Shown in pieces: positions 9,480 through 59,904 of a stretch of 64,000 nt of DNA; position 1 is the first letter of the stretch, and each line of letters starts with the position of its first letter. This DNA is from Thermodesulfobacteriota bacterium (GTDB lineage: Bacteria; Desulfobacterota; Desulfobulbia; Desulfobulbales; JBFMBH01). The translations under genes were made by a program, and so were the position numbers. The notes under the pieces were generated by a model. That model saw nothing but the letters and a program-made list of their open reading frames with translations, searched no databases and had not been told where the DNA came from. The DNA is taken from NCBI GenBank assembly GCA_040755095.1, contig JBFMBH010000004.1:12968-76967 (forward strand), given 5' to 3'.

Positions 9480-9702
9480 CTCACAAGGAGAGGGCGCTTC
9501 TCGCCTGAGCAGCCGGGTGATATCCTCGGCGGCAGGACAGACATCCTGATCAGCAGGACGGAATCCTTACCAGCAGGACGGGCTGACTGCGGGAATCGGT
9601 ACGCGAGACCGCAACAGTCGTGTGAACGAGTAAGGCGGGTAACGGGGGTTGTCAAGAAAGGACGGGCAGGTCCTTGGCCTGCAACAGATGGCGGCAGGAC
9701 CC

Positions 9703-9743
9703 AAAAGACATGGGGGAGACAGGGCCCGGACCCTGCCTCCCCC
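9703..9743 (-). terminator. intrinsic terminator-like hairpin after the truncated PEP-CTERM copy
   Basis: The minus strand reads GGGGGAGGCAGGG-tccggg-CCCTGTCTCCCCC followed by AUGUCUUUUGG. It is homologous to the terminators at 10203 and 11036, but its U-run is weaker. Confidence 0.5.
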
Positions 9744-9771
9744 GGGGGTAAGAGCTGAAAAGGAGATGGTG

Positions 9772-10156
9772 CTAGCTGCGGCGACGCACGGCAATGAGCC
9801 CAAAGAGGCCGGAGCCCAGGAGCAGCACGGAGGCCGGCACCGGAACCGGGCTGGCATCGTGGATCAGGACGCCGGTGCCGGAGCTCGGCTGCCCCACAAT
9901 ATCCCAAATCTCATAGGCTTCCACGCCCGGGATCGGCACCACATCATACTGGAGGTTGGTGACCACCGACCCGCCGCTCACCATGCCGAACTTGATGCCG
10001 AACTCTGCGGTCGGCCCCAGGGAGACGGTCGTCGAGTTCGGGGTGAAGCCCATGTACCAGGTGCCACCGAGGTTGCTGAAGTTCACTGTCCGGGTCCTGG
10101 CGGTGGGGGTGATCACCCACAGGGCGCTGCCCGGATTGCCCCAGTCGTAGAAGGCC
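9772..10156 (-). pseudogene. 5'-truncated PEP-CTERM paralogue (relic of tandem copy 1)
   Basis: It encodes only the C-terminal ~128 codons homologous to copies 2 and 3 (AFYDWGNPGSALWVITPTARTRT...VPVPASVLLLGSGLFGLIAVRRRS). An in-frame TAG sits directly upstream of AFYDW. Signal peptide, leader and promoter are all missing. Confidence 0.8.
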
Positions 10157-10202
10157 TAACTAAGGAAAGTGTGTCCCGCAGCCACGCGCCGGCAAAAGGC
10201 AC

Positions 10203-10247
10203 AAAAAAATCCGGAGGCGGCAGGGCCCGGACCCTGCTGCCTCCGGA
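10203..10247 (-). terminator. rho-independent terminator of PEP-CTERM copy 2
   Basis: The minus strand reads TCCGGAGGCAGCAGGG-tccggg-CCCTGCCGCCTCCGGA followed by UUUUUUU. Confidence 0.8.
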
Positions 10248-10272
10248 TGCGAAGTCTGAAACCGGATTGGCT

Positions 10273-10845
10273 CTAGTTGCGGCGGCCGCGCACAGCAATG
10301 AGCCCAAAAAGGCCGGAGCCCAGGAGCAGCACCGAGGCCGGCACCGGAACCGGGCTGGCATCGTGGATCAGGACGCCGGTGCCGGAGCTCGGCTGACCGA
10401 CAATATCCCAGATCTCATAGAGCTCGACGCCCGGAATCGGCACGACATCATACTGATAATTGGTGACCACCGAGCCGCCGCTCACCATGCCGAACTTGAT
10501 GCCGAACTCCGGGGTGGCCCCCAAAGATACGGTCGTCGAGTTCGGGGTGAAGCCCATGTACCAGGTGCCACCGAGGTTGCTGAAGTTCACGGTCCGGGTC
10601 CTGGCGGTGGGGGTGATCACCCACAAGGCACTGCCAGGATTGCCCCAGTCATAGAAGGCCATCCTGGGGTAGGTCGCGTTCTGGGCAACCAGGTGCAGGG
10701 CGAAGGTGAACACATCGTCCTGGGTGTTGTTGAGGTCGTTGGGCTGCCAGGCGCCACCATAGGTATAGGCACTCGCCGAGCTCGGCCGCGAGGCTGCAGC
10801 CAGCAGCACCAAGGCGATCACCGCCATCCATCGCATCTTCCGCAT
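10273..10845 (-). CDS. PEP-CTERM sorting-domain secreted protein (tandem copy 2)
   Basis: An RBS GAGGAGGAAG precedes the ATG at 10845. The signal peptide is MRKMRWMAVIALVLLAAASRPSSASA. The C-terminus VPVPASVLLLGSGLFGLIAVRGRRN has the PEP-CTERM layout: motif, transmembrane helix, Arg cluster. Confidence 0.85.
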   Translation of the reverse strand: MRKMRWMAVIALVLLAAASRPSSASAYTYGGAWQPNDLNNTQDDVFTFALHLVAQNATYPRMAFYDWGNPGSALWVITPTARTRTVNFSNLGGTWYMGFTPNSTTVSLGATPEFGIKFGMVSGGSVVTNYQYDVVPIPGVELYEIWDIVGQPSSGTGVLIHDASPVPVPASVLLLGSGLFGLIAVRGRRN

Positions 10846-10973
10846 CGTCTTCCTCCTCAGATTATGTTGGACCTTCGTTGCATCGGGTTGGGGTCTGCCC
10901 AGGCAGCCCCTCGACTCCACATTCCGCGCCGATCCCGGGAACCGGCGCTACCTTTCCATTGCCCCCTCCCCGC

Positions 10974-10990
10974 TAGCAGAAACCATGCCA
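10974..10990 (-). promoter_or_regulatory. sigma-54-type -24/-12 promoter (TGGCAT-N6-CTGCT) of copy 2
   Basis: The minus strand reads TGGCATGGTTTCTGCTA, with GG and GC 12 nt apart as in the TGGCAC-N5-TTGCW consensus. It is positionally homologous to the element upstream of copy 3. Confidence 0.6.
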
Positions 10991-11035
10991 TAACCGCAAG
11001 GGAAGCGCCCCCGCAGCCACAAGCCGGCCAAGAGC

Positions 11036-11082
11036 AAAAAAAAATCCGGAAGCAGCAGGGCCCGGACCCTCCTGCCTCCGGA
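11036..11082 (-). terminator. rho-independent terminator of PEP-CTERM copy 3
   Basis: The minus strand reads TCCGGAGGCAGGAGGG-tccggg-CCCTGCTGCTTCCGGA followed by a U9 run. Confidence 0.8.
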
Positions 11083-11107
11083 TGCGAAACCTGGATCGAA
11101 ATCGACT

Positions 11108-11680
11108 CTAGTTGCGGCGGCCGCGCACGGCAATGAGCCCGAAGAGGCCGGAGCCCAGGAGCAGCACCGAGGCCGGCACTGGAACCGGGCTGGCATCGTG
11201 GATCAGGACGCCGGTGCCGGAGCTCGGCTGACCAACAATGTCCCACACCTCATAGGCTTCCACGCCCGGGATCGGCACCACATCGTACTGAAGATTGGTC
11301 ACCACGCCGCCGCCGCTCACCATGCCGAACTTGATGCCAAACTCAGCGGTCGGCCCCAGGGAGACGGTCGTCGAGTTCGGGGTGAAGCCCATGTACCAGG
11401 TGCCACCGATGTTGCTGAAGTTGACTGTCCTGGTCCTGGCGGTAGGGGTGATCACCCACAAGGCACTGCCCGGATTGCCCCAATCGTAGAAGGCCATCCT
11501 GGGGTAGCTCACGTCCTGGGCAACTAGGTGCAGGGCGAAGGTGAACACATCGTCCTGGGTGTTGTTGAGGTCATTGGGCTGCCAGGCGCCGCCGTAGGTA
11601 TAGGCGCTCGCTGGGCACGGCCGCAGGGCTGCAGCAAGCAGCACCAAGGCGATCATCGCCATCCATCGCATCTTTCGCAT
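11108..11680 (-). CDS. PEP-CTERM sorting-domain secreted protein (tandem copy 3)
   Basis: An RBS GAGGAGGAAG precedes the ATG at 11680. The signal peptide is MRKMRWMAMIALVLLAAALRPCPASA, and the C-terminal PEP-CTERM motif is the same as in copy 2. Confidence 0.85.
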   Translation of the reverse strand: MRKMRWMAMIALVLLAAALRPCPASAYTYGGAWQPNDLNNTQDDVFTFALHLVAQDVSYPRMAFYDWGNPGSALWVITPTARTRTVNFSNIGGTWYMGFTPNSTTVSLGPTAEFGIKFGMVSGGGVVTNLQYDVVPIPGVEAYEVWDIVGQPSSGTGVLIHDASPVPVPASVLLLGSGLFGLIAVRGRRN

Positions 11681-11773
11681 CGTCTTCCTCCTCAGATTAT
11701 GCAAGACCTTCGTTTCATCGCGTCCTGCCCGATCCCGGGAACCGGCAGCACTTTCCATCTGCCCATCCCAAGC

Positions 11774-11790
11774 AAGCAGGAAGTGTGCCA
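11774..11790 (-). promoter_or_regulatory. sigma-54-type -24/-12 promoter (TGGCAC-N6-CTGCT) of copy 3
   Basis: The minus strand reads TGGCACACTTCCTGCTT with GG/GC spacing as in the consensus. It lies about 95 nt upstream of the start codon. Confidence 0.65.
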
Positions 11791-11894
11791 CTCATCTGAG
11801 GATCTGACCAGGCTGCCCAGCGCCACTCAGGAGACCAGTCGTGGCATTCCAACCAGCCAACCCTGCCCGATCAGCCCACCACCAATCCGATAAG

Positions 11895-11923
11895 CCGGAA
11901 AATCCGTTCGGAAAGCCGGAAAA
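11895..11923 (-). promoter_or_regulatory. candidate enhancer (UAS): CGGAA-repeat element
   Basis: The plus strand reads CCGGAAAATCCGTTCGGAAAGCCGGAAAA, centred about 120 bp upstream of the -24 element. A near-identical core, CCGGAAnAnCCGTTCGGAAA, occurs at 30797-30831 at the same relative position upstream of another PEP-CTERM gene. Confidence 0.5.
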
Positions 11924-12012
11924 CCTCCAGGAAACCGAACAACCCGAAAAAGGCGGGACCGACCAACACGTCTCACCCCCTGCACCGACCAGGAGGCGCC
12001 CACCCGCAGGCC

Positions 12013-12056
12013 CTCCCAGAAACACCAAGGCCGGCCAGAATGGCCGGCCTTGGTGT
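12013..12056 (-). terminator. terminator-like hairpin downstream of tRNA-Pro
   Basis: The minus strand reads ACACCAAGGCCGGCC-attc-(T)GGCCGGCCTTGGTGT followed by UUCUGGG. Confidence 0.55.
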
Positions 12057-12065
12057 GAAAAACCA

Positions 12066-12142
12066 TGGTCGGGACGAGAGGATTTGAACCTCCGACTCCC
12101 TGAACCCCATTCAGGTGCGCTACCAGACTGCGCTACGTCCCG
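12066..12142 (-). tRNA. tRNA-Pro (anticodon GGG)
   Basis: The minus strand reads CGGGACGTAGCGCAGTCTGGTAGCGCACCTGAATGGGGTTCAGGGAGTCGGAGGTTCAAATCCTCTCGTCCCGACCA. It folds as a cloverleaf with anticodon loop AUGGGGU and an encoded CCA. Confidence 0.93.
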
Positions 12143-12204
12143 ACCCCATGCCCCAAAAAGGCTCAATGGTTACCATGAATAGCCGCCTCGGTCAAGGAGA
12201 AGAC

Positions 12205-12534
12205 TCACCGCTCCTCCTCCAGCAGCCGGCAGATCGCCACCAGCTCCCCCTTGATGGCGGCCAGGATATCCGAGCGCTGACTGCGGCCCCCCTTGCGGGC
12301 CTGGGCCAGGGCCTTTCTGGCGCCAGGGATGGTATATCCCTCCTCGTAGAGGAGCTCTTTGATCCTGAGGAAATTCTCCACATCCGCCCGGCGGTACAGC
12401 CGCTGCTTGGAGGCCACGCGGTTTGGTCGGATGACCGCAAACTCCGATTCCCAATAGCGGAGGACATGCGCCGCGACACCGGTGAGAGAGGCCACCTCCC
12501 CCATTCGGAAGTACTGCTTGTCAGGGATGGCCAT
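12205..12534 (-). CDS. MerR-family transcriptional regulator
   Basis: [32 protein letters not shown]...RLYRRADV is a MerR helix-turn-helix. An alternative start lies at 12573. The gene sits downstream of ihfA, as in many deltaproteobacteria. Confidence 0.8.
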
Positions 12535-12607
12535 GGCCTGAGTCTCTGCCGGGGCCTTCCGTGCGTCGGTCACGGCCGCGTCCTCTCCCCCGCCCAGGGG
12601 CCTTGCC

Positions 12608-12910
12608 TCAACCTCCGCCCTGGCCGTTGATCCGCTGCCGTAGCTTCTTGCTGGGCCGGAAGCTGACCACCCGGCGGGGGGTGATGGCCATGGGCACCCC
12701 GGTCCGAGGATTACGGCCGAGCCTGGCCGCCTTGTCCCGGATCAGGAAGGTGCCGAACTGGACAAGCTTCACCGATTCGCCGGCCAAAAGGGTCTCCCGC
12801 AGGCACAAGAAGACGTCATCCACCAGCTCTCCTGCCACCCGCAGCGAAAAACCCAGTTGCTCGTGGATGGCCCGCGCCAGCTCCTTTCGGGTCAGACTCG
12901 GCTTCCTCAC
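12608..12910 (-). CDS. ihfA: integration host factor subunit alpha
   Basis: 100 aa. [10 protein letters not shown]...[47 protein letters not shown] is the HU/IHF fold signature. The GTG start overlaps the pheT stop (GTGA). Confidence 0.9.
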
Positions 12911-24712: not shown

Positions 24713-25726
24713 TCACGACTGAAGACCGGGCTCCAGGACCTGTCCGCCCGCCTTCCAGCAGCGGGCCCAGTGGCCAGGGCCAATGGCGTAGGCGGCGATT
24801 GCCCCGGCCCGGCAGCGGGCCTCCACCAGGGGACAGCGGCCCTGGAAGCGGCAGCCCCGGGGGAGATCCACCGGGCTCGGCGGCTCGCCGGGCAGGACCG
24901 CGAGACCACGGCCTTCGTCCGGACGTACAGAAGGCACTGCCGCCAGAAGCGCCCGGGTGTACGGATGGCTGGGCCGGGCAAAGACCGCCCCGCAGGGACC
25001 ATACTCCATGATATGCCCCAGATACATGACCGCCAGCGTGTGGCTGAGATAGCCCACCACATGGAGGTCGTGAGAGATGAACAGGTAGCCAAGCCCCAGC
25101 TCGGCCTGGAGATCGGTCAAAAGGTTCACGATCTGGGACTGGATGGACACGTCCAGGGCTGACACCGGCTCGTCGCACACGATGAGCCGCGGCCGGACAG
25201 ACAGCGCCCGGGCAATGCCGACCCGCTGGCGCTGGCCGCCGGAAAACTCGTGGGGGTAACGGCCGGCCGCCGCCCGGGGCAGGCCCACCATCTCCAGAAG
25301 CTCGGCCACCCGGGCCCGGCGCTCCGGGCCGCGACCGCCCTCCTGCCGCACCCCTTCCTCGATAGCCTCGCCTACGGTCATACGGGGGTTCAAGGATCCG
25401 TACGGGTCCTGGAAGATGATCTGCATCTGCCGCCGCAGACGCCGCAGCTCCCCTGCCGGCATGCGGCCCAGGTCCTGATCCTGGAAGAGAACCCGGCCGC
25501 CGTCGGCGGGCAGGAGCCGGAGCACCAGCCGGCCCACGGTGGACTTGCCGCAGCCGCTCTCCCCGACCAGCCCCAGGGTTTGGCCCGGGGCCATCGCCAG
25601 GTCAATGCCGTCCACCGCCTTGATCCAGCCCGCCGGCCGTTGCAGAACGCCGCGCCGCAGCGGAAAATATTTTTTGAGCCCCTGAACCGTCAACAGCTGC
25701 TCCCCAGTGCTGGATGGCCCGCTCAC
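24713..25726 (-). CDS. ABC transporter ATP-binding protein, OppF/DppF type
   Basis: Walker A (GESGCGKST), signature (FSGGQRQRVGIARAL) and Walker B (LIVCDEPVSALD) are present. The C-terminal oligopeptide-type extension is SHPYTRALL...GCRFQGRCP. The GTG start overlaps the upstream TPR gene stop (GTGA). No permease or binding-protein gene is nearby. Confidence 0.88.
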   Translation of the reverse strand: MSGPSSTGEQLLTVQGLKKYFPLRRGVLQRPAGWIKAVDGIDLAMAPGQTLGLVGESGCGKSTVGRLVLRLLPADGGRVLFQDQDLGRMPAGELRRLRRQMQIIFQDPYGSLNPRMTVGEAIEEGVRQEGGRGPERRARVAELLEMVGLPRAAAGRYPHEFSGGQRQRVGIARALSVRPRLIVCDEPVSALDVSIQSQIVNLLTDLQAELGLGYLFISHDLHVVGYLSHTLAVMYLGHIMEYGPCGAVFARPSHPYTRALLAAVPSVRPDEGRGLAVLPGEPPSPVDLPRGCRFQGRCPLVEARCRAGAIAAYAIGPGHWARCWKAGGQVLEPGLQS

Positions 25727-27993
25727 GGCTGCCCCCCTGTCCCTTCCTGGGCCGAGCCCGCCCGCTGCCTGTCCAGGCGCTGGCCCATATCCCGGGCCCG
25801 CTTGTACAGCCCCTCCGCCTCCATGTAGCGCCCCTGGGCCTGGCAGTTGGCAGCCAGAGCAGACAGTCCCAGGACGATGTTGCCGTGCTCCGGCCCGAAG
25901 GCCTGCTCCCAGATCGCCAGGCTGCGCCGCAGGAGCGGCTCGGCCTCCTGGTAGCGTCCCTGGTCCTGATGAAGACCAGCCAGGTTTCTGAGCACCGCCG
26001 CCACATAGGGATGCTCCGGCCCCAGGTGCTCCTCCCAGACGCTCAGGGCACGACGGTAGAGGGTGTCGGCCTGCCGGAAGCGACCCTGACCGTGGAGCAG
26101 CCGCGCCAGGTCATTGAGGATCTCGCCTTGCAGGGAATCGCTGGGCGCCACGGCCTGCTCGGCACCGGCCAGGGCCTCCCGGAACAAGACCTCAGCGGGC
26201 TCGGTCCGCCGCTCAGCCAGCAGCAGACGGGCCAGGCGGGCCTGCCAGCGGGCCAGCTCGCCCCGGTCGGCACCGGGCTGGGCCGCCAAGAGATCCACCG
26301 CCCGGCGCAACGAGGCCTCGGCCTCGGCGAGGCGCCCCCCCTGCTCGTGAACGCTGGCCAGGCCCCCCAGGGCCGGCACCAGCTCCAGGGCTGCCGTGCC
26401 CTGGCTGGCCTCGATGATCCCCAGCAGCCGGCGGTAGGTCTCCTCCGCCGCAACCGGCTGAGCGACCCGTTCCTGGAGATCCGCCAGGATCAAGAGCGGC
26501 TCGACAAGCTCAGGTGCCTGGGTGCCAAAGGTGGCTTCCCAGATCGCCACCGCCCGGGCCTGGAGCGGCAGGGCAGCGCCCGGTCCCTGGGTTGCCAGAC
26601 GCAGGCTGGCCACAAGCTGCAGCTGACCGGCTACGAAGGGATGCTCCACCCCGAAAAGCCTTTCCCATACCGCGACCGCCTGGCCGGCTAACGGCTCCGC
26701 CTCCCCCAACCGCCCGGCCAGGCGCAGGCAGTCCACCAGATCCGAGAGGCTGGCCGCGGTCCAGGCGTGGTCAGGGCCAAACTCCTGCCGGCGGATGGCG
26801 TACGACTCCCGCAGGAGCGGCTCCGCAGCCTGGGGCTGCCCCTGGGCCAGGAACAGACGCCCCCGGTCGGTCAAGGTCTCGGCCAGCTCCGGATCATCCG
26901 CCTCCAGGATGCGGCGCTGGATGGCCAGGGCCTGCTCCAGGGTGCCAGCAGCTGCGGCGGTCTCCCCCAAAGCCTTTTGCACCTCGGCCAGAGCCCGGAG
27001 CGTTGGCAACAGGTCGGAATGGGAAGGCCCCAGGGCGGCCCGCCACTCCGCGAGCGCCGCCTCCAGCGCAGCCTTGGCCACCGGCAGGTCGCCCCGGTCC
27101 CGATTGACCCGGCCAAGCCCCAGAAGACAGGCAGCCAACCGGCCCCGCTGCCGTGGCTCCACGGCGGCCAAGGCCGCCAGGGCCTGCAAATAGCCGGCCT
27201 CGGCCTGGCCGAGATCGCCCACTCTTTCCTGCGTCTGGGCCAGGGCCAAAGCAGCGGAGGCCGCGGCTGGGTGGCGGCCTCCGTGCGAGGACAGGGTCAG
27301 GGCCAGCACCCGGGTTCGGAGCTGACTGGCCGCCGGCATCTCCCCCAGCTCCTCGGCAGCCGCGGCCTGGCGGGCCAGGAGGTCGGCCAACAGCCCGTCG
27401 GCTCCTGCTCCGGCCGGCACCAGTTCTGTCGCTTGGCCATAGATACTGGCCGCCTCGGCGGTGGCCAGCAGCATGAAGGCCCGGTCGCCGTCGAAGCCGA
27501 GCAGGGTGGCGGCGGCCAGAGCCCCCTGGCCGCCGGTGGCCTTCTCCCGGGCCTGGCCGGCCAGGCGGGCCAGCTCCTCGTGCAGCCGGCCCAGCTCACC
27601 GGCATTGAGCCAGATCAGAAGCTGAGCCGCCCCGGGATCGCCGGACAGACTGTCCTCCTCCCATGCCGCGAGCCGGTTGCGGACCAGGCGGTAGCGCTCG
27701 CTCATGAGCCGCAGGCGCTCCCGGCGCTCCCTGGTCGTCAGCCGGTCAGGAAGCGCCTGCCGCAACGCCTGATAGACCCCGGCTGGCAAGCCGAGACGTT
27801 GCGGGCCGGGATCCGCATCCCCGCTGGCCGGGGCAGCGCTCTGGCCGGCCGGCTCCACCACGGGAGGCGGAGCCGGCTCCCCGCCGGGCTGTCCCCGCTG
27901 CCGCATTCCGCGGACGAGGCCCAGCCCCAGAGCCGGAACCAGCAGGCCCACGAGCAGCAGCCACAAGGCGGGTCGGTTGCGGAGGTCGGTCAT
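25723..27993 (-). CDS. membrane-anchored tetratricopeptide-repeat protein
   Basis: 756 aa. An N-terminal transmembrane helix (PALWLLLVGLLVPALGLGLV) and a Pro-rich linker are followed by many 42-residue TPR_12-like repeats (...LAxLxxxQGRYxEAEPLxxRALAIxExxxGPEHP...). Confidence 0.85.
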   Translation of the reverse strand: MTDLRNRPALWLLLVGLLVPALGLGLVRGMRQRGQPGGEPAPPPVVEPAGQSAAPASGDADPGPQRLGLPAGVYQALRQALPDRLTTRERRERLRLMSERYRLVRNRLAAWEEDSLSGDPGAAQLLIWLNAGELGRLHEELARLAGQAREKATGGQGALAAATLLGFDGDRAFMLLATAEAASIYGQATELVPAGAGADGLLADLLARQAAAAEELGEMPAASQLRTRVLALTLSSHGGRHPAAASAALALAQTQERVGDLGQAEAGYLQALAALAAVEPRQRGRLAACLLGLGRVNRDRGDLPVAKAALEAALAEWRAALGPSHSDLLPTLRALAEVQKALGETAAAAGTLEQALAIQRRILEADDPELAETLTDRGRLFLAQGQPQAAEPLLRESYAIRRQEFGPDHAWTAASLSDLVDCLRLAGRLGEAEPLAGQAVAVWERLFGVEHPFVAGQLQLVASLRLATQGPGAALPLQARAVAIWEATFGTQAPELVEPLLILADLQERVAQPVAAEETYRRLLGIIEASQGTAALELVPALGGLASVHEQGGRLAEAEASLRRAVDLLAAQPGADRGELARWQARLARLLLAERRTEPAEVLFREALAGAEQAVAPSDSLQGEILNDLARLLHGQGRFRQADTLYRRALSVWEEHLGPEHPYVAAVLRNLAGLHQDQGRYQEAEPLLRRSLAIWEQAFGPEHGNIVLGLSALAANCQAQGRYMEAEGLYKRARDMGQRLDRQRAGSAQEGTGGQP

Positions 27994-29966: not shown

Positions 29967-30560
29967 CTATCTCTGTCGCCGCCGGCAGGCCAGGCCGGCA
30001 AGGCCAGAGCCCAGAAGGAGGATGGAGGCAGGCGCGGGCACCGGGGTCCCGGCATCCGAGGAGACTACCAGCTCCGTCACGCGCCAGGATTCATCGTTGA
30101 TGCCCTGAAATCCAGAGCCATAGCCATAGAAGGAGAGGCTCAACGTGGTCGCCGTGTGGGCAAAGGTGAAGCCGTTGTTGTAGTTCTGGAAGTAGCGATC
30201 GATTGGCCCCCAGCTGTTGATGCCGTTGTAGTTGCCGATTCCATCGGCGGTATCGGTGTTGGACTCGGCCCCGCCGAAGTTGTCAAATGTCCAGCCCTGA
30301 GCCGCCCCGTCCACACTGAAACCGAAGGCGTCTGGTGACCAGCCACCATCCGAGCCATCCCAGCTGTCCATGATGAAGAGGTCAAAATTGACGGTGACCG
30401 TTGAATGTGGCGCCAGGCCACTCAGATTGATGGTCACGGCATCTGTGGTATGGTCGCCCAGGTTGGGATTGGAGTAAATAACCGTCGATGCTTGTGCCAG
30501 GTTGGTCATGCCGAGCATCAAGAATCCGGTTGCCAATGCGGCCCGCAGCAGTCTCTTCAT
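29967..30560 (-). CDS. PEP-CTERM sorting-domain secreted protein (unrelated mature domain)
   Basis: The signal peptide is MKRLLRAALATGFLMLGMTNLAQA. The C-terminus is TPVPAPASILLLGSGLAGLACRRRQR. The ATG at 30560 follows GGAGCGAGACCACG. Confidence 0.85.
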   Translation of the reverse strand: MKRLLRAALATGFLMLGMTNLAQASTVIYSNPNLGDHTTDAVTINLSGLAPHSTVTVNFDLFIMDSWDGSDGGWSPDAFGFSVDGAAQGWTFDNFGGAESNTDTADGIGNYNGINSWGPIDRYFQNYNNGFTFAHTATTLSLSFYGYGSGFQGINDESWRVTELVVSSDAGTPVPAPASILLLGSGLAGLACRRRQR

Positions 30561-30684: not shown

Positions 30685-30701
30685 ATGCATAAAGGGCGCC
30701 A
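30685..30701 (-). promoter_or_regulatory. sigma-54-type -24/-12 promoter (TGGCGC-N6-ATGCA)
   Basis: The minus strand reads TGGCGCCCTTTATGCAT with GG/GC spacing as in the consensus. It lies about 125 nt upstream of the start codon at 30560. Confidence 0.55.
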
Positions 30702-30796
30702 CCCTGCCGAGCGGGAGGTCTTCTTTCAACATCCAGCAATTTCAACCAGTTGGTCGGATGGTTGCCGGCTGCCCGACAAGGAGTCCATTCGGCAAT

Positions 30797-30831
30797 CCGG
30801 AATAGCCGTTCGGAAACGCGGAAGCCGGAAT
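30797..30831 (-). promoter_or_regulatory. candidate enhancer (UAS): CGGAA-repeat element
   Basis: The plus strand reads CCGGAATAGCCGTTCGGAAACGCGGAAGCCGGAAT. Its first 20 nt match 11895-11914 at 18/20 positions. It is centred about 112 bp upstream of the -24 element. Confidence 0.5.
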
Positions 30832-33302: not shown

Positions 33303-36014
33303 TCAGGGCGCGGTGGCGATGGAGTCGATCTCGATGGCGCAGCCGCTGGTGACCGTGGGATCCAGGCGCAGGCTGCGGATCTCCCGGCCGGCCCACTCGC
33401 CATGGGCCGCCGTGTCGATCAGGTAGTCGTGGAACTGGCCGTCGGCGGTGACCGCGAAGTTAATCTTCCTCAGCTCCGACTCGGACAGAGCAGTGCTGTG
33501 GGTCCAGAAGAGCTGGCCGGTGGTGGTGGCCGCCGCGCTGCAGCTGGTTTTCATGCGCACCGCCAGCAGGGGCACCTCGTTGCCGGCAAAGGACATGCCG
33601 CTGCGTCGCAGGTAAGGATCGGTGCCGGTGCTGGAGGTGGCCAGCGCGCCACCCGACACCACCAGGGAGGTCAGGTGGGTGTTCTTCACCCAGCCCTCGG
33701 TGTCACCGGCCGCCTCGAACTGGAAGCTCACCGGGCTCGCCGCGGTGGTGACCGCCACCACGTTGCTGCTGGCGGATTCCCCCTGACCGTTGACCGCCTT
33801 GACCCGGAGCCAGTAGCTGGTGGCCCGGGCAAGCCCGGAGACGGTGCTGGTCACGAAGTTGCTGCCATTGTCCGCTGCCACGACCCAGGTGCTGCCATCG
33901 GTGGACCGCTCGACGACGAAGCCGTCCTCGTCGTCGGCATGGTCTGTCCACCGGAGGTCGACCCGGTTGTGGAAGACAGCGGACGCCACCAGGCCGCTGG
34001 GGGCGGCGGGCGGCGCCGCGGCCGGGGCAGGCGGCGGTACCGTCTGGATGAAATCGATGGCCATGGCGGCGCCGGCCACGTCCGTGGGATCCAGGCGCAG
34101 GCTGCGGATGTCCTTGCCGGCCCACTGGGGATGGCCGGACAGATCCAGGGCGTACAGATGGAACTGGCCGTCGACGATGGGGGTGAAGGCCAGGGCCTTG
34201 GACATCGATTCTGCGGTGTCGCTGGTGGTGGTCCAAAGAACATGGCCGACGCTGCCAGCGGAGACCTTCATCTACGGGGTATTGGGCTCCAGGCCCTGGT
34301 CGACAAAGCTGCTGGAGGTGCCGCCCATAGCGTGGTTGATGGCCGGCGCAGTGCCGATCTGCACCCAGCCGCCGGTGCCGGTGAGGGATCTTTCCACCGT
34401 GAAGCCCTCTTCGTAGTCCAGCCGGCCATGGGGCAGGTGACGCCAGGAGAAGGCGAGCCCATTGACCGAGGTGCTGGACATGGTCAGGGCCGTGGGCGCC
34501 GGCGGCGGCAGCTCGGCCGGCGGCAGCTCGTTGCGCCAATCGATGGGATTGCTGAACCGCCAGGAGATGTGGCAGGCGTTGCTGGAGCAGGTGCCACCGC
34601 CGACCTTGGGCTGATAAACAAAGCTCAATGGCTGCCAGGCCTGGTGGGCGAAGAACTGGGGGGCGGCCACCACGTCCATCCGGCCATTGACATGGATCGA
34701 CCGGTCCCGGATCGAGATGGCGCCGGCAGCTGGATCCTTCTGCACACTGGTGGCATGGCACAGCTCGCAGGTGCAGCCCCGGGAGATGTGAGTCCAGTGG
34801 GCGTCGCCGGCCGGCGGCCGGCCGTGGCAGTTGTTGCAGGTGTCGCTGTCCCCCTGGGGATCGGAAGCGGAGCCATCCCAGGCCAGTGAGCGGCCGGTGA
34901 CCCGGCGGCCGTCCACACTGCTCTTGCCGTCGCTGTGGCAGTAGACGTTGTCACAGGTCAGGGCATCGTCCTTGACCACCGCGGTGCCGTTGGTGGCCTG
35001 TAGTCGTAGCCGGTGACCGCCGGGGACACCGCGGTCTGGCCGTGGAAGATGGTATTTTCTCCAGCGCGGCCGAAGGTGGCAAAGCCGATCTGGATCCTGG
35101 AGTCATCGTAGACCGGGCTGGCCGGCATCCCGCCGCTATGGCAGTTGTCGCAGGCAAAACCGTAGCCGGTGGCCTGGTCGACATGGATCCGGTGGGCGCC
35201 GGCGGACGCCGAGCCGGTGGGCGACGGGATGTCCACCAGGCCGTCCGGGCTGCCCGGGGCGTCGGTTACCGGCGGGTAGCCGTGGCAGGCCAGGCAGCTG
35301 GGCGCAAAGCCGGTGGCGTGGTCATGGCAGTCGGTGCAGGTGCGGCCGCTGAAATGGTCGGCCAGCATGGCGTTGGCCCGCCAGTGGTCGGTGGCGGTGT
35401 GGCAGACCTGGCAGACCCCGTCCGGGCTGGGGTCGGCCGCCGGATCGCCACCATCGTCGGCAAAGCCGTTCGTGCCCTCACGGTCGAAGAGCTTCACCGG
35501 CTTCAGGCTGTGGTCCGCCGGGTTCTCCATCTCCTCCTTGACATACTGGCCGTAGAGGATGGCGAAGGCGTCGCCGCTGGCCACCTGGCCGGCATAGGCC
35601 GGGATGGCGGCGATATTGCCGCTCACTGTGATGGAGGCGGCGTCGGCGGCAAGGATCTCGAAGCTCACCTCCGGGGCCGCCAGGCTGGGCAGAAGGATGA
35701 GACCGCGGCCCGGTCCGGTCTTGTGGCTCCAACGGCCAGGATCCGCCCAGGCGGCCCGTGCGGTAGACATTGGCGTCGTGGCACTCCTGGCAGGAGGCAG
35801 CCGGCAGCACCGTCCGGTCGTGGCGGGCCTCATGGCTTGCGCCGTGACAGGCGGCGCAGTTGGCGGCCTGCACATGGCTGGCCTGGTGACAATCCGTGCA
35901 CTCCACCGCCAGGGCGTAAGCCAGGCCGGGCGCCCCGGCGAGCCATCCCAGAAGACCGCCCTGCACCAGGACCGCCACCACGGACAAGATGCCGCTCCGC
36001 CTTCCCTGTCGCAT
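33303..36014 (-). pseudogene. large secreted multihaem cytochrome c / FN3-domain protein, disrupted by 2 frameshifts and 1 in-frame TAG
   Basis: An RBS GGGGGAAGG precedes the ATG at 36014, and the signal peptide is MRQGRRSGILSVVAVLVQGGLLGWLAGAPGLAYA. Coding sense moves from the frame of ORF 35478..36128 to the frame of 34958..36073 near 35740-35765, then to the frame of 34272..34979 near 34990-35005. A TAG lies at 34272-34274. The gene carries 9 CxxCH and 2 CxxxxCH motifs, two FN3-like domains and a duplicated C-terminal domain. Confidence 0.7.
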
Positions 36015-36274
36015 CCGCCTTCCCCCTTTCCCGGATGGATGAGCTGCCGCTCGCGGCCACCGGCCCCGAACACGCCGCCGGGGCGTACCGCATCGTTCTC
36101 TTGTCCAAAAAGCGGCCGGCGGGCTCAATTGGCGGAACGCTCATTTCGGATTAAGCGGAGGACGGGTGACCGGTGGGAAGGTTGCGCGGGGGAGCGACCG
36201 GAGCTCGCGCCCAGCCGGCATGGCGGGGTACCTCCTGGCCGGGGCCGGCGGCCGCCGTGCCCTGTTGCCTGGGG

Positions 36275-54928: not shown

Positions 54929-57040
54929 ATGGCCTCCATCGACGACATCCCCATCCTGCCCGCCGAGCCGGCCGCCGGGCTGCCGCCGGAGCCGGCCCCC
55001 GACCCGGGGCCGCGGCCGCTGCCGGTCTGGACCCACCTCCAGCTCATGGCCCTGGCCTCCGGCATCGGCCTTCTGGTCACGGTGCTGATCGGCATCGGCC
55101 TCTACCTGTTCGTGGCCCTCGATCTGCCCAGCCTGGCCTCGGTGGCCGACTACCAGCCGGACACCACGGCGGTCATCCTGGGCCGCGACGGCGGCATCCT
55201 GGGCCGCATCCACCGGGAGAACCGCACCCTGGTCACCCTGGACAGCCTGCCGCCCCTCCTGCCCCAGGCCTTTGTGGCGGCCGAGGACAGCCGCTTCTTC
55301 TCCCATCCCGGGGTGGATCTGTGGAGCGTGCTCCGGGCCGCCATCCACAACCTCAGAGCCGGCGCGCCGGTCCAGGGCGGCAGCACCATCACCCAGCAGG
55401 TGGCCCGCTCCCTTCTCCTCTCCCGGGAGAAAACCTATGCCCGCAAGCTCCGGGAGGTGCTCCTGGCCTGGCGCATCGATGCGGCGCTCAGCAAGGACGA
55501 GATCCTCTACCTCTATCTGAACCAGATCTACTTCGGCGAAGGGGCCTACGGGGTGGAGGCGGCGGCCCAGACCTATTTCGGCACCGCCGCCTCCCGCCTG
55601 AGTCTGCCGCAGCTGGCGATCCTGGCGGGCCTACCCCAGGCACCCAGCCGCTATTCGCCCTTCCGGCGCCTGGACCTGGCCAAGAAGCGCCAGGCCTATG
55701 TCCTGAACCGCATGGCCGAGGAGGGGATGATCGCGCCGCAGGAGGCCCGGGACGCCTATGCCGAGCCTCTGACCTGGGCGACCCCGCCCGCAGGCCACCA
55801 CGAGGCCGGCTACTTCTTGCAACAGGTGCGCCAGGAGGTGGAAGAAAGGCTGGGCCGGGAGGCCTGGTGGCGGCTGGGACTGACGGTGGAGACCACCCTG
55901 GACGGCCGGCTGCAGCAGGCGGCCACCGAAGCGGTACAGGCGGGGGTCGCCGCCTGGCAGAAGCGGCAGCGGCGGGCCGCGGGCAGCCCGGCGGCCCAGG
56001 CGGCCCTGGTCGCCCTGGATCCGGCCAGCGGCGAGATTCTGGCCCTGGTAGGAGGGAGCGACTATGCCGCCAGCCAGTTCAATCGGGCGGTGCAGGCCCG
56101 CCGGCAGCCAGGCTCGGCCTTCAAGCCCTTCATCTATGCCGCGGCCCTGGAACAGGGCGTCACCCCGAGCCAGATCTTTGCCGACGCCCCCCTGAGCTTA
56201 CCGGGCAGCCGGCCTGGTGAGACCTGGAGCCCCCAGAACTACGACCACCGCTTCCATGGCCCGGTGACCCTCAGGACCGCGCTGACCCAGTCCCTCAACC
56301 TGGCCACCCTCCGGGTCCTGGAGACGGTAGGGGTGGAGCGCCCGGTGCGGCTGGCCCACAGCCTGGGCATCGCCTCGCCCCTGGCTGCCGACCTCTCCCT
56401 GGCCCTGGGGGTGTCCGAGGTGTCGCTCCTGGAGCTCAGCGCCGCCTACGCCGCCTTTGCCAACGGCGGCCTGGCGGTGGCCCCCCGCAGCTGCACCCGG
56501 ATCCTGGATCGCCACGGCATCGTCCTGGCCGAAAACACCCCCCGCCGCCGCCGGATCCTCTCCGCCGAGACCGCCTTCCAGATGGCCCATCTCCTGAAAG
56601 GGGTGGTCACCGAGGGCACCGGCCGGGCCGCAGCCAAATTGGCCCGGCCGGCAGCGGGCAAGACCGGCACCACCGACGACAACCGGGATGCCTGGTTCAT
56701 CGGCTTCACGCCGAACCTCCTGGCCGGGGTGTGGATGGGCCACGACCGGCGCTCCTCCCTGGGCCGGGAGGAGACCGGCGGCCGGGCCGCGGTGCCGATC
56801 TGGCTGGATTTCATGGCCCGGGTCCTGCCCCGGGAGGATGCCGGCGCCGATTTTGTGCCGCCACCCGGCATCGAGCTCGTCAGGGTGGATCCGGCAACCG
56901 GAACGGTGCTGGCCGCCGGCGAAGAGGGGGGGGTGCTGGAGGCCTTCAACCGGCGCTGGCCGTTGCCGGCACCGGAGCCGGGGACGGATGAGCAGGGATC
57001 GGCGGTCAGGCCCGATCGTTCTTCCGGGGCAGGTCCTTGA
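54929..57040 (+). CDS. mrcA: class A penicillin-binding protein 1A (glycosyltransferase + transpeptidase)
   Basis: The GT51 motifs are AAEDSRFFSHPGVD and GGSTITQQ. The transpeptidase motifs are SAFKP and KTGTT. An N-terminal transmembrane anchor is present. Confidence 0.9.
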   Translation: MASIDDIPILPAEPAAGLPPEPAPDPGPRPLPVWTHLQLMALASGIGLLVTVLIGIGLYLFVALDLPSLASVADYQPDTTAVILGRDGGILGRIHRENRTLVTLDSLPPLLPQAFVAAEDSRFFSHPGVDLWSVLRAAIHNLRAGAPVQGGSTITQQVARSLLLSREKTYARKLREVLLAWRIDAALSKDEILYLYLNQIYFGEGAYGVEAAAQTYFGTAASRLSLPQLAILAGLPQAPSRYSPFRRLDLAKKRQAYVLNRMAEEGMIAPQEARDAYAEPLTWATPPAGHHEAGYFLQQVRQEVEERLGREAWWRLGLTVETTLDGRLQQAATEAVQAGVAAWQKRQRRAAGSPAAQAALVALDPASGEILALVGGSDYAASQFNRAVQARRQPGSAFKPFIYAAALEQGVTPSQIFADAPLSLPGSRPGETWSPQNYDHRFHGPVTLRTALTQSLNLATLRVLETVGVERPVRLAHSLGIASPLAADLSLALGVSEVSLLELSAAYAAFANGGLAVAPRSCTRILDRHGIVLAENTPRRRRILSAETAFQMAHLLKGVVTEGTGRAAAKLARPAAGKTGTTDDNRDAWFIGFTPNLLAGVWMGHDRRSSLGREETGGRAAVPIWLDFMARVLPREDAGADFVPPPGIELVRVDPATGTVLAAGEEGGVLEAFNRRWPLPAPEPGTDEQGSAVRPDRSSGAGP

Positions 57041-57963: not shown

Positions 57964-59904
57964 ATGGTCGATGCCCCCTGCCCTGCCGGACCCCTGTCCG
58001 CCCCTGGCCGGCCGATGAGCGCCGGCGATCTGGCCCGGGTGCTGGAGCTGGTGGACCGGGAGCCCTTTGCCATCTTCCTGGACACCGCCCGACCCGGGCC
58101 GGGCGAGCGCTTCTCCTACCTCTACCGCCATCCGGTCCGGCAGCTGCGCCTGGCAGCCGCCGCGGAGCTGCCCGCCTTCCTGGCCGCCTGCCAGGAGGCC
58201 ATGGACCAGGGCCTGATCCTGGCCGGCTATCTGGCCTACGAACTGGGCTATCTCCTGGAGCCGGCCCTGGCCGGACTGCTGCCGGCCTCCGACCTGCCGT
58301 TGGCCGAGCTGGGGGCCTTTGCGCGGCCGGAGGTGTTCGACCATGCCACCGGCCGCTGGCAGCCGGATTCCCCCTGCCCGGCCGGGCCGACCCCGGCGGC
58401 CGGTGAGTATCGGATCACCGGGCTGGCGCCGGATCTCGGCCAGGAGCAGTATACCCGGGCCGTGGCCCGGATCCTGGACCTCATTGCCGCCGGCGACACC
58501 TACCAGGTCAACTACACCCTCAAGTACCGGTTCTCGTGGACCGGCTCCGCCGCCGCCCTCTACCTGGCCCTGCGCCGCAGCCAGCGGGTGGCCTATGCCG
58601 GCTATCTCCGGCTGGGGGCGCGCCGGATCCTTTCTTTGTCGCCAGAGCTCTTCTTCCACGCCGCGGGCGGCCGCTGCACGGTGCGGCCCATGAAGGGCAC
58701 CAGCCGCCGGGGCCGGGATCGGGTCGAGGATGAGGGCCGGCGCGAGGCCCTGGCCGCTGATCCCAAGAACCGGGCCGAGAACGTCATGATCGTCGACCTC
58801 CTGCGCAACGACCTGGGCCGGCTGTGCGTGCCAGGGGGGGTGGCGGTGGCGTCGCTTTTCGATGTCGAGACCTACGAAACCCTCCTGCAGATGACTTCCA
58901 CCATCGAAGGCCAGCTGCGGCCGGAGGTGGGACTGGCCGGGCTTCTTGCCGGCCTCTTCCCCTGCGGCTCGGTGACCGGCGCCCCCAAGATCCGCACCAT
59001 GGCCATCATCCGGGAGCTGGAGGCGGGCCCCCGGGGCGTGTACACCGGGGCCATCGGCCATCTGTCGGCTGCGGGCGGCACCATGAGCGTGCCGATCCGC
59101 ACCGTGGTCCTGGAGGAGGGGAAAGGCGAGATGGGGGTCGGCTCCGGCATCGTGGCGGACTCGGATCCGGAGCGGGAATGGGCGGAATGCCAGCTCAAGG
59201 CCGAGTTCCTGGCCCGGCCCCATCCCGAGTTCGGGCTGGTGGAGACCATGCTCTGGCGGCCAGCCACCGGCTTCTGGCTCCTGGCCGGGCATCTGGAGCG
59301 CCTGGCCGAGTCGGCGGCCTTCTTTGGCTTTCCCTGCGACCGGCCCGCTCTGGAGGCAGCCCTCCAGCAGCAGGTCGAGACGCTCGCCGGCAGCCAGAGC
59401 CAGCGGCTGCGGCTGGTGCTGGCGCCGGACGGCAGCTGGCGGCTCACCGCCATCCCCCTGCCAGCGGGCGCCCGGCCGGCCGGCGAGCCGCCGCTGGTGG
59501 CCCTGGCGGGCCAGCGGGTCGACTCGACCTCCGTCTTCCTCTACCACAAGACCACCTGCCGAAAGCTCCAGGACCAGGAGCTGGCGCGGGGCCGGGAGCG
59601 GGGTCTGTTCGAGGTCATCTTCACCAACGAGCGGGGGGAGGTGACCGAGGGGAGCTTCACCAACCTGTTCATCCGCCGGGACGATCTGTTCCTCACCCCG
59701 CCCGTATCCTCCGGCCTCCTGCCCGGCGTCTTCCGCCGCCACTTCCTGGCCCGACAGGGGGGCAGGGCCCGGACCCAGGTGCTCACCCCAGAGGATCTGA
59801 CAAAGGCCGAGGCAGTGTACGTGGGCAACTCGGTGCGGGGCCTCGTCCCGGTGCGCTACTGCGCGGCCGGCTTGCCCTTGGCACCGGCCCGGGCCTTGGG
59901 GTAA
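57964..59904 (+). CDS. pabB: aminodeoxychorismate synthase component I fused to aminodeoxychorismate lyase (PabB-PabC)
   Basis: The chorismate-binding core carries GDTYQVNYT, PMKGTSRRG, DLLRNDLGR, GSVTGAPKIRTM and YTGAIG. The C-terminal fold-type IV part carries FGLVETMLW... and GLLPGVFR. The start is uncertain (57964, 58015 or an upstream non-ATG). Confidence 0.85.
   Translation: MVDAPCPAGPLSAPGRPMSAGDLARVLELVDREPFAIFLDTARPGPGERFSYLYRHPVRQLRLAAAAELPAFLAACQEAMDQGLILAGYLAYELGYLLEPALAGLLPASDLPLAELGAFARPEVFDHATGRWQPDSPCPAGPTPAAGEYRITGLAPDLGQEQYTRAVARILDLIAAGDTYQVNYTLKYRFSWTGSAAALYLALRRSQRVAYAGYLRLGARRILSLSPELFFHAAGGRCTVRPMKGTSRRGRDRVEDEGRREALAADPKNRAENVMIVDLLRNDLGRLCVPGGVAVASLFDVETYETLLQMTSTIEGQLRPEVGLAGLLAGLFPCGSVTGAPKIRTMAIIRELEAGPRGVYTGAIGHLSAAGGTMSVPIRTVVLEEGKGEMGVGSGIVADSDPEREWAECQLKAEFLARPHPEFGLVETMLWRPATGFWLLAGHLERLAESAAFFGFPCDRPALEAALQQQVETLAGSQSQRLRLVLAPDGSWRLTAIPLPAGARPAGEPPLVALAGQRVDSTSVFLYHKTTCRKLQDQELARGRERGLFEVIFTNERGEVTEGSFTNLFIRRDDLFLTPPVSSGLLPGVFRRHFLARQGGRARTQVLTPEDLTKAEAVYVGNSVRGLVPVRYCAAGLPLAPARALG

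What the first reader, a model, noticed from the sequence alone, without database searches (positions are those of the whole stretch)
11895..11923. CGGAA-repeat element upstream of the PEP-CTERM array: candidate enhancer shared with an unlinked PEP-CTERM gene
CCGGAAAATCCGTTCGGAAAGCCGGAAAA contains three CGGAA(A) direct repeats with starts spaced 13 and 8 nt apart. It also contains an inverted TCCG-nn-CGGA core. It is centred about 120 bp upstream of the -24 GG. At 30797-30831, about 19 kb away, a near-identical core (18/20 over CCGGAAnAnCCGTTCGGAAA) shows the same 13/8 repeat spacing. That copy sits about 112 bp upstream of a third -24/-12 element, in front of a PEP-CTERM gene with an unrelated mature domain. 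The flanking sequences of the two sites are otherwise unrelated. Same motif, same distance, same promoter class and same sorting-signal family point to a common bacterial enhancer-binding protein site. PEP-CTERM/exosortase systems are known to be associated with an NtrC-family sigma-54 activator (the PrsK/PrsR pair). I do not know of a defined operator for this lineage.
Basis: partly seen in the sequence, partly recalled or inferred. Interest (0 to 1): 0.65.

Follow-up and report, generated by a model that had tools for sequence, protein, structure and literature searches.

The report
Candidate sigma-54 enhancer upstream of PEP-CTERM genes
A 35-45 bp CGGAA/TTCCG-rich element occurs twice in the window, each time about 100-125 bp upstream of a sigma-54-type promoter of a secreted PEP-CTERM protein gene, so it is most likely the docking site of the activator that switches these genes on; its sequence differs from the published operator of this regulon.

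Summary
Clusters of at least three CGGAA in 32 nt occur only at 11896-11921 and 30798-30830 (0.035 expected). The two copies share 25/30 bases, the same orientation and nearly the same distance from a -24/-12 promoter. The genes are on the minus strand: a tandem pair plus a truncated copy, and an unrelated PEP-CTERM gene 19 kb away.

The element extends further toward the promoter than reported. It reads best as two imperfect 16-bp dyads (TTCCG-N6-CGRAN) whose centres are 21 bp apart. The promoter-proximal dyad lies 104 and 95 bp from the -24 GG. One distant orthologue (L127) has the same two-dyad layout, 115 bp from its own sigma-54 promoter.

An upstream activating sequence for an NtrC-family enhancer-binding protein is the best reading (about 0.6). 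A PrsR operator has in fact been published (Haft 2006; Kazakov 2015; DAP-chip in Rajeev 2011): TGTCGGA-N5-yTTACA. It is absent here, yet present upstream of two other orthologues.

The activator may therefore be a PrsR with altered specificity or a different protein. No activator gene lies in the window, and the rest of the genome could not be reached. This is a modest finding: a new operator motif within a known regulatory scheme.

The parts
11885..11923 (-). Site 1 of the CGGAA/TTCCG element. Read on the minus strand: TTTTCCGGCTTTCCGAACGGATTTTCCGGCTTATCGGAT. Dyad D1 is 11906-11921 (TTCCG-GCTTTC-CGAAC). Dyad D2 is 11885-11900 (TTCCG-GCTTAT-CGGAT). The centres are 21 bp apart, and the D2 centre is 104 bp from the -24 GG.
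30787..30831 (-). Site 2 of the element. Read on the minus strand: TTCCGGCTTCCGCGTTTCCGAACGGCTATTCCGGATTGCCGAAT. D1 is 30808-30823 (TTCCG-CGTTTC-CGAAC). D2 is 30787-30802 (TTCCG-GATTGC-CGAAT). One extra distal TTCCGG lies at 30825-30831. The D2 centre is 95 bp from the -24 GG.
11775..11790 (-). Sigma-54-type -24/-12 promoter of gene A1: TGGCACACTTCCTGCT.
   Evidence: PWM 20.9 bits, second best in the window; no sigma-70-like promoter in 9500-12300
30686..30701 (-). Sigma-54-type -24/-12 promoter of gene B: TGGCGCCCTTTATGCA. This is the weakest of the three.
   Evidence: PWM 12.2 bits; orthologues in other lineages carry clear sigma-54 promoters
10975..10990 (-). Sigma-54-type promoter of gene A2: TGGCATGGTTTCTGCT. 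It has no copy of the element. Only the A1 terminator lies upstream, and site 1 is about 900 bp away.
11108..11680 (-). Gene A1, 190 aa: signal peptide, lineage-restricted mature domain, and a C-terminal PVPVPAS + TM + RGRRN sorting signal.
10273..10845 (-). Gene A2, a tandem paralogue of A1 (93% aa, 91% nt identity).
9772..10152 (-). A3, a 5'-truncated third copy with no promoter and no start codon.
29967..30560 (-). Gene B, 197 aa: a PEP-CTERM protein of a different, widely scattered family (PF07589; about 45 homologues).
30740..30752 (+). IHF-like site TTTCAACCAGTTG (1 mismatch to WATCAANNNNTTR), between site 2 and the B promoter. No counterpart at A1.

Best explanation
The element is an upstream activating sequence (enhancer) for an NtrC-family sigma-54 enhancer-binding protein. 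That protein co-regulates otherwise unrelated PEP-CTERM/exosortase substrates in this Thermodesulfobacteriota MAG.

Shown: each copy consists of two imperfect 16-bp dyads (TTCCG-N6-CGRAN) whose centres are 21 bp apart, which is two helical turns. They lie 95-125 bp upstream of a -24/-12 promoter, in one orientation, at near-integral numbers of helical turns from the -24 GG.

Inferred mechanism: each dyad binds a dimer of the activator through its C-terminal Fis-type helix-turn-helix. Two dimers on one face of the DNA nucleate the active AAA+ hexamer once the receiver domain is phosphorylated by its kinase. DNA looping, possibly helped by IHF at gene B, brings the hexamer to the closed sigma-54 holoenzyme complex. 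ATP hydrolysis then opens the promoter.

The activator is not identified. It is either a PrsR orthologue with changed DNA specificity (my estimate about 0.35 overall) or a different activator that has taken over these genes (about 0.25).
For: - Sequence and position.
- Only two CGGAA clusters in 64 kb, against 0.035 expected.
- 25/30 identity at -131/-122, and 20/24 never reached in 300 shuffles.
- Exact 11-nt repeat at 21 nt. The two-dyad pattern occurs only at these two sites, though it was derived post hoc.
- Distances from the D2 centre to GG are 104, 95 and 115 bp, i.e. 9.9, 9.05 and 10.95 turns, in A1, B and L127.
- L127 is a 58%-identical orthologue of B from an AT-rich organism. It has a 15/20 match (P about 0.0045 per region) in the same orientation, with better palindromes: GTTCA-N6-CGAAC and TTCCG-N6-CGGAA, 21 bp apart.
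- Of 120 unrelated genomic occurrences of the 20-nt core, none has both flanking half-sites.
- The promoters are sigma-54 type and no sigma-70-like promoter is present. Such promoters strictly need an upstream-bound activator (established knowledge).
- Precedents in the same phylum: DVU0653 sites are TGTCCG-N6-CGGACA, in 2-3 copies about 30 nt apart and 120-150 nt upstream of a sigma-54 promoter. PrsR (DVUA0057) binds upstream of PEP-CTERM genes in DAP-chip.
- The proteins share only the sorting signal, which fits a common regulon of exosortase substrates.
- The element shows no RNA structure signal and no Rfam match.
Against: - There are only two copies plus one distant relative, and the dyad model was partly shaped on those same three sequences.
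- The dyads are imperfect (3-4 of 5 half-site positions symmetric in the window copies), so a direct-repeat reading (TTCCG at 0, 8, 21) is not excluded.
- About 20 other family-B upstream regions lack the element.
- The strongest promoter, A2, has no copy of its own.
- The B promoter is weak by PWM (12.2 bits), similar to several intragenic chance hits.
- No activator gene, exosortase or prsK/R/T lies in the window.
- Genome-wide enrichment could not be tested. The genome scan was saturated by chance hits, the metagenome scan found nothing, and the source contigs are not retrievable.
Confidence: 0.6

Rival explanations
1. It is the canonical 'PEP-CTERM box', the published PrsR operator, simply not recognised as such.
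For: The genes are PEP-CTERM genes with sigma-54 promoters, the setting in which the PrsR operator was defined. The known half-site TGTCGGAA contains CGGAA, and the central repeat here is GTTCGGAAA.
Against: A PWM from 28 DVUA0057 sites gives no hit above 8 bits upstream of A1, A2 or B, while true sites score 14.3-24.3. The best hit in the window (12.1) lies at the clpB start. There is no TGT-N11-ACA frame and no TTTACA. The spacer to the sigma-54 motif is 83-92 nt, against 62.8 +/- 10.6 in Haft 2006. The same PWM does find strong sites upstream of orthologues L121 (20.7) and L135 (18.6), both P<0.001, so the test has power.
Confidence: 0.05
2. It is a binding site for a regulator that is not an enhancer-binding protein. 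Examples are a repressor, or a response regulator of the OmpR or NarL type that recognises direct TTCCG repeats and modulates these promoters.
For: The direct-repeat reading (TTCCG at 0, 8, 21 and +/-7) fits the window copies at least as well as the dyad reading. The site is intergenic, conserved and oriented.
Against: Sigma-54 promoters need an activator bound upstream, and no other shared element exists in the -60 to -260 interval. The shared 8-mer TCGGGCAG at -75/-80 is not enriched. A position 95-125 bp upstream with integral helical phasing is typical of enhancers, not of repressors, which usually overlap the promoter (established knowledge). In L127 the direct-repeat reading fails but the dyad reading holds.
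Confidence: 0.12
3. It is a non-functional similarity: chance, or a relic of an old duplication of a promoter region.
For: There are only two copies in the window. The sequence is of fairly low complexity (CGGAA repeats). PEP-CTERM genes duplicate readily, as the A1/A2/A3 array shows.
Against: Shuffle tests argue against chance. Orientation, distance and phasing are the same. The similarity is confined to a roughly 35-nt patch, while promoters, 5'UTRs and coding regions are not alignable. A related element exists in L127 inside an otherwise unrelated AT-rich region. The real duplication (A1 to A2) copied the promoter but not this element.
Confidence: 0.1
4. It is a copy of a short dispersed repeat (REP- or MITE-like) that happens to sit in long intergenic regions.
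For: It lies in long non-coding regions next to terminators and a tRNA gene. It contains short palindromes.
Against: There are only two copies in 64 kb, both in one orientation relative to a promoter. It has no terminal inverted repeats. Folding is no better than shuffles, with z from -0.84 to +0.74. It was absent from the metagenome scan.
Confidence: 0.04

Closest known systems
PEP-CTERM box: predicted PrsR operator (Haft et al. 2006 motif 1; DVUA0057 motif of Kazakov et al. 2015; DAP-chip of Rajeev et al. 2011)
   Same: It is a cis element upstream of the -24/-12 promoters of single-gene PEP-CTERM operons with long intergenic regions. It is sometimes repeated and is presumed to dock an NtrC-family response regulator. 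Orthologues of gene B in other lineages (L121, L135) carry this canonical box.
   Different: The sequence and frame differ: TGTCGGA-N5-yTTACA (17 bp, TGT...ACA) against TTCCG-N6-CGRAN (16 bp), twice at 21 bp. The PWM test was not met. The spacer to the promoter is longer (83-92 against about 63 nt). The presence of PrsK/R/T in this genome is unknown.
DVU0653 enhancer of Desulfovibrio (sigma-54-dependent ncRNA promoter)
   Same: It has the same core geometry, TCCG-N6-CGGA, in 2-3 tandem copies located 120-150 nt upstream of the promoter, in the same phylum.
   Different: The copies are 30-33 bp apart rather than 21. The outer TGT/ACA bases are conserved there but absent here. The target is a small RNA next to the regulator gene, not PEP-CTERM genes.
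Classical NtrC/DctD/ZraR-type tandem-dyad enhancers
   Same: Two dyad sites on one face of the helix, about 100-140 bp upstream, with optional IHF-assisted looping (established knowledge, not tested here).
   Different: The half-site sequence is different. Binding and cooperativity are untested.
Aquincola/Zoogloea pepA promoter (RpoN-dependent PEP-CTERM gene)
   Same: The -24/-12 hexamers TGGCAC ... CTGCTT are identical to those of A1. RpoN dependence was shown experimentally there, and the previously predicted enhancer is reported upstream. NCBIfam's best match of the A1/A2 C-terminus is floc_PepA.
   Different: The organism is a betaproteobacterium and carries the canonical box. The mature protein is unrelated.

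Membership tests
Sigma-54 enhancer (upstream activating sequence of an enhancer-binding protein) | Lies upstream (typically 80-150 bp) of a -24/-12 (GG-N10-GC) promoter | tested here: met
   Element centres are about 105-115 bp upstream of the GG of promoters at 11790 and 30701. The B promoter is weak (12.2 bits).
Sigma-54 enhancer (upstream activating sequence of an enhancer-binding protein) | One or more dyad-symmetric sites of about 15-18 bp, often in tandem on one helical face | tested here: inconclusive
   Two 16-bp dyads lie 21 bp apart in all three instances. Symmetry in the window copies is only 3-4 of 5 per half-site. The model was derived from the same sequences.
Sigma-54 enhancer (upstream activating sequence of an enhancer-binding protein) | Bound by an AAA+ activator and required for transcription | not testable with these tools
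   Needs EMSA or DAP-seq and reporter assays. No activator gene is in the window.
Sigma-54 enhancer (upstream activating sequence of an enhancer-binding protein) | Recurs upstream of the co-regulated promoters of the genome and in relatives | tested here: inconclusive
   Present at 2 of 3 promoters in the window and in 1 of about 21 family-B upstream regions from other organisms. A whole-genome test was impossible.
PEP-CTERM box (PrsR operator) | 17-nt motif TGTCGGA-N5-yTTACA (Haft motif 1 ends in TTTACA) | tested here: not met
   A PWM of 28 published sites gives nothing above 8 bits upstream of A1, A2 or B. Positive controls L121 and L135 score 20.7 and 18.6.
PEP-CTERM box (PrsR operator) | Spacer of about 63 +/- 11 nt to the sigma-54 motif | tested here: not met
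   The spacer is 92 nt (A1) and 83 nt (B) from the proximal end of the element to the 17-nt promoter motif. These values are at or beyond the upper end of the published range, whose maximum is 92.
PEP-CTERM box (PrsR operator) | Located upstream of PEP-CTERM genes | tested here: met
PEP-CTERM box (PrsR operator) | Genome encodes PrsK, PrsR and PrsT | not testable with these tools
   None is in the 64-kb window. The TPR protein at 25723-27993 does not hit TIGR02917.
PEP-CTERM/exosortase substrates (the regulated genes) | C-terminal P-E-P-like motif + TM helix + basic cluster, with an N-terminal signal peptide | tested here: met
   B and A3 pass TIGR02595 (18.9 against a cut-off of 16), and B has PF07589. 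A1 and A2 reach 24.7 bits on TIGR03370 VPLPA-CTERM (cut-off 25.35) and match PepA and other PEP-CTERM C-termini. The motif is PVPVPAS/PVPAPAS rather than PEP.
Dispersed short repeat (REP/MITE) | Many copies, stable palindromic fold, no fixed relation to promoters | tested here: not met
   There are two copies in 64 kb, both promoter-oriented. Folding z-scores are -0.84 to +0.74.

The most novel reading that the evidence does not exclude
In this high-GC Thermodesulfobacteriota lineage, and independently visible in the organism of L127, the PEP-CTERM regulon may have been rewired away from the canonical PEP-CTERM box. The replacement would be a different operator: two TTCCG-N6-CGGAA-type dyads two helical turns apart. 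This could arise because PrsR changed its DNA specificity, or because another NtrC-family activator captured the exosortase substrates. Orthologous genes in other lineages still carry the canonical box, so this would be a traceable case of operator turnover at sigma-54 enhancers.
Probability: 0.4. Interest if true: 0.45.

Novelty: new member of a known kind. Interest (0 to 1): 0.3.

Why it matters
PEP-CTERM/exosortase systems shape biofilm and floc formation, and their regulation is known mostly from predictions plus one DAP-chip study. A second, non-canonical operator for the same class of genes would show that the regulon's wiring is not universal. It would also give a concrete motif for finding the responsible activator and the full set of exosortase substrates in uncultured Thermodesulfobacteriota. 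The gain is incremental: the overall logic (sigma-54 promoter plus an upstream activator site in front of single PEP-CTERM genes) has been described since 2006.

Tried and rejected
- **Genome collection scan.** None had a sigma-54 motif within 220 nt or the flanking half-sites. It was uninformative apart from serving as a negative control.
- **Metagenome scan.** The 21-base pattern CGGAANNNCCGTTCGGAAANNCGGAA gave 0 hits.
- **Retrieving source or sister contigs.** Exact-protein look-up with A1, P0001, P0002 and IHF-alpha found nothing on record. The A family has only two members in 5.8 billion proteins.
- **Canonical PrsR operator.** The PWM scan was negative.
- **Shared 8-mer TCGGGCAG at -75/-80.** It is not enriched (9 found, 6.35 expected), so it was dropped.
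- **A PrsR-like TGTCGGGCAGCCGGCA near B.** It has the wrong spacer and scores below 8 bits.
- **RNA element.** No Rfam hit and no folding signal.
- **A copy of the element for the A2 promoter.** None was found.
- **Fourth -24/-12 match at 55818-55833.** It is antisense inside the PBP1A gene and is probably chance.
- **Closer relatives of L127.** None exist in the database. The extra orthologue loci L146-L149 are AT-rich and lack the element.
- **IHF site.** One is plausible only at B.

Full report
**What is at the coordinates**

The quoted 29-mer is at 11895-11923 and its relative is at 30797-30831. All relevant genes are on the minus strand, so in the direction of transcription the element reads TTCCG rather than CGGAA.

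Downstream of site 1 lie, in order:
- a -24/-12 promoter, TGGCACACTTCCTGCT, at 11790-11775;
- gene A1 (11680-11108) and a terminator;
- a second promoter, TGGCATGGTTTCTGCT, at 10990-10975;
- gene A2 (10845-10273);
- a 5'-truncated third copy, A3 (10152-9772).

A1 and A2 are 93% identical in protein and 91% in DNA. Upstream of site 1 are a perfect 16-bp hairpin and tRNA-Pro. Downstream of site 2 lie TGGCGCCCTTTATGCA (30701-30686) and gene B (30560-29967).

NCBIfam matches all of these proteins only through their C-terminal sorting domains (PEP-CTERM, VPLPA-CTERM, PepA tail). A1 and B share nothing beyond that tail. The source is an NCBI MAG labelled Thermodesulfobacteriota bacterium. The window has 68% G+C.

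**Is it more than chance?**

Yes.
That pattern was built from the sites, so it is not an independent test.
- Independently, clusters of three or more CGGAA within 32 nt occur only here in 64 kb on either strand (0.035 expected).
- The best ungapped match between the two 260-nt regions upstream of the promoters is 25/30. The matches start 131 and 122 nt upstream of the -24 TGG. A score of 20/24 was never reached in 300 dinucleotide shuffles, and 18/20 was reached once.
- Among 120 occurrences of the same 20-nt core in unrelated genomes, none carries both flanking half-sites that both window copies have. None has a sigma-54 motif nearby either.

**Anatomy**

Site 1 contains an exact 11-nt direct repeat, AAGCCGGAAAA, at 21-nt spacing.

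| Copy | D1 | D2 |
|---|---|---|
| A1 | TTCCGGCTTTCCGAAC | TTCCGGCTTATCGGAT |
| B | TTCCGCGTTTCCGAAC | TTCCGGATTGCCGAAT |

B has one extra distal TTCCGG. The pattern T[CT]CG-N6-CG[AG]A-N7-T[CT]CG-N6-CG[AG]A occurs only at these two sites in the window (0.0 expected), but it was derived post hoc.

The centre of the proximal dyad lies 104 bp (A1) and 95 bp (B) from the -24 GG. These distances are 9.9 and 9.05 helical turns. As RNA the element folds no better than shuffles. Rfam finds only tRNAs and SRP RNA in the window.

**Promoters**

A PWM built from the 87 D. vulgaris sigma-54 promoters of Kazakov 2015 ranks the A2 and A1 promoters first and second in the whole window, at 22.6 and 20.9 bits. 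The median of real sites is 17.9. The B promoter scores 12.2, near the 10th percentile and similar to a few intragenic hits.

The B promoter is intergenic, correctly oriented and 141 nt from the start codon. Orthologues of B elsewhere carry clear sigma-54 promoters. No sigma-70-like promoter is found around the array.

**Relatives**

The A family has only one other member in 5.8 billion proteins, and its contig could not be retrieved. The B family has about 45 members, and I read about 21 of their upstream regions. Most come from AT-rich organisms and lack the element.

One does not. L127 is 58% identical and comes from a Logan assembly of ERR4592244. It has AATCCGAACCGTTTTTCCGA, a 15/20 match to the core (P about 0.0045 per region by shuffling), in the same orientation. 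It resolves into two good palindromes, GTTCA-N6-CGAAC and TTCCG-N6-CGGAA, again 21 bp apart. The proximal one is 115 bp (10.95 turns) from a sigma-54 promoter, TGGTCTCGATGTTGCA. In L127 the direct-repeat reading fails and the dyad reading holds, which is why I prefer dyads.

**Comparison with what is known**

- Haft et al. 2006 described a 17-nt 'motif 1' ending in TTTACA, 62.8 +/- 10.6 nt upstream of the sigma-54 motif. It was found before 99 of 167 proteobacterial PEP-CTERM genes. Its phylogenetic profile was used to discover PrsK, PrsR and PrsT.
- Rajeev et al. 2011 showed by DAP-chip that the D. vulgaris PrsR (DVUA0057) binds upstream of its PEP-CTERM genes.
- Kazakov et al. 2015 list its sites as TGTCGGA-N5-yTTACA.

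A PWM from 28 of those sites gives no hit above 8 bits upstream of A1, A2 or B, whereas real sites score 14.3-24.3. The same PWM finds strong sites upstream of the B orthologues in L121 (20.7 bits) and L135 (18.6 bits), both P<0.001 by shuffling.

So genes of this family belong to the canonical PrsR regulon in some lineages, while in this MAG and in L127 the canonical box is replaced by the TTCCG element.

The geometry has a precedent in the same phylum. The DVU0653 activator recognises TGTCCG-N6-CGGACA in 2-3 copies, 120-150 nt upstream of a sigma-54 promoter. The A1 -24/-12 hexamers (TGGCAC, CTGCTT) equal those of the experimentally RpoN-dependent pepA of Aquincola.

**Mechanism proposed**

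Shown: the sequence, copy number, orientation, distance, phasing and promoter class.

Inferred: each dyad binds a dimer of an NtrC-family activator. Two dimers on one DNA face seed the ATPase hexamer after phosphorylation. The DNA loops, and an IHF-like site, TTTCAACCAGTTG, lies between the element and the promoter at B only. The hexamer then remodels the closed sigma-54 complex.

The A2 promoter was copied without the element. A2 would have to use site 1 from about 900 bp away, or be poorly expressed.

Which activator binds is open. No activator, kinase of the PrsK type, PrsT or exosortase is encoded in the window.

**Limits**

The evidence rests on two copies and one distant relative. The genome-wide enrichment test that would decide the matter could not be run. 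The genome collection scan was saturated by chance hits. The specific metagenome scan found nothing.

**Verdict**

The PrsR attribution is unproven and is contradicted at the level of the published operator. The finding is a new operator motif within a known regulatory scheme, of modest interest.

Noticed in passing
window 9772-10152 (-): A third copy of the A gene is truncated at its 5' end. It starts mid-gene at ...FYDWGNPG and has no promoter or start codon, but keeps an intact sorting signal and terminator. It is probably a pseudogene left by unequal recombination in the array.
   Followed up: partly
window 10975-11100 (-): The A1-to-A2 duplication copied the -24/-12 promoter and the 5'UTR but not the upstream element. 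The A2 promoter has the best sigma-54 PWM score in the window (22.6 bits), yet only the A1 terminator lies upstream of it.
   Followed up: partly
window 11722-11751 (-), and the equivalent stretch in A2: A palindrome in the 5' untranslated region (CCGGTTCCCGGGATCGG...) is conserved between A1 and A2. It could be a leader hairpin or a second protein site.
   Followed up: no
window 12022-12056: A perfect 16-bp inverted repeat (ACACCAAGGCCGGCCA / TGGCCGGCCTTGGTGT) lies directly downstream of tRNA-Pro and is followed by only a short T-run. The terminator scan did not call it.
   Followed up: no
window 11108-11190, 10273-10355 and 29967-30050 (-): The sorting signals read PVPVPAS or PVPAPAS instead of the near-invariant P-E-P. 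A1 and A2 score just under the cut-off of TIGR03370 (VPLPA-CTERM). This suggests a lineage-specific exosortase recognition motif shared by unrelated substrates.
   Followed up: partly
window 29967-30560 (-); proteins P0003-P0047: Gene B belongs to a conserved family of about 200 aa with invariant DSWDG and DESWRV motifs. It has no Pfam domain other than the sorting tail and no sequence relative in the PDB. Its function is unknown.
   Followed up: partly
L121 about 9669-9787; L135 upstream of 2908: Orthologues of gene B in two AT-rich organisms carry strong canonical PrsR-type boxes upstream of the gene: TGTCGAAAAATTTAACA (20.7 bits) in L121 and TGTCAAAAATATTTACA (18.6 bits) in L135. A sigma-54 promoter was found only in L121 (TGGCACGATATATGCT); the promoter scan found none in L135.
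   Followed up: yes
window 12608-12910 (-): The integration host factor alpha gene (in the usual pheST-ihfA arrangement), followed by a MerR-family regulator gene (12205-12573), lies just upstream of tRNA-Pro and site 1. This is probably coincidental.
   Followed up: no
window 55818-55833 (-): A fourth match to the -24/-12 pattern (TGGCGCACCTGTTGCA, 12.7 bits) lies antisense inside the PBP1A gene. It is most likely chance.
   Followed up: partly
window 33303-36073 (-) and 59856-61292 (-): There is a cluster of putative multihaem cytochromes, including the Geobacter-type CxxxxCH motif and an fn3 protein. A tetrathionate-reductase-family octahaem cytochrome is also present. These hint at a metal- or sulfur-respiring lifestyle.
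   Followed up: no
window 9772-11680 and 29967-30560: The PEP-CTERM genes have lower G+C (59-64%) than the window average (68%) and neighbouring housekeeping genes (67-69%). The A array sits next to a tRNA gene. This is compatible with horizontal acquisition.
   Followed up: no
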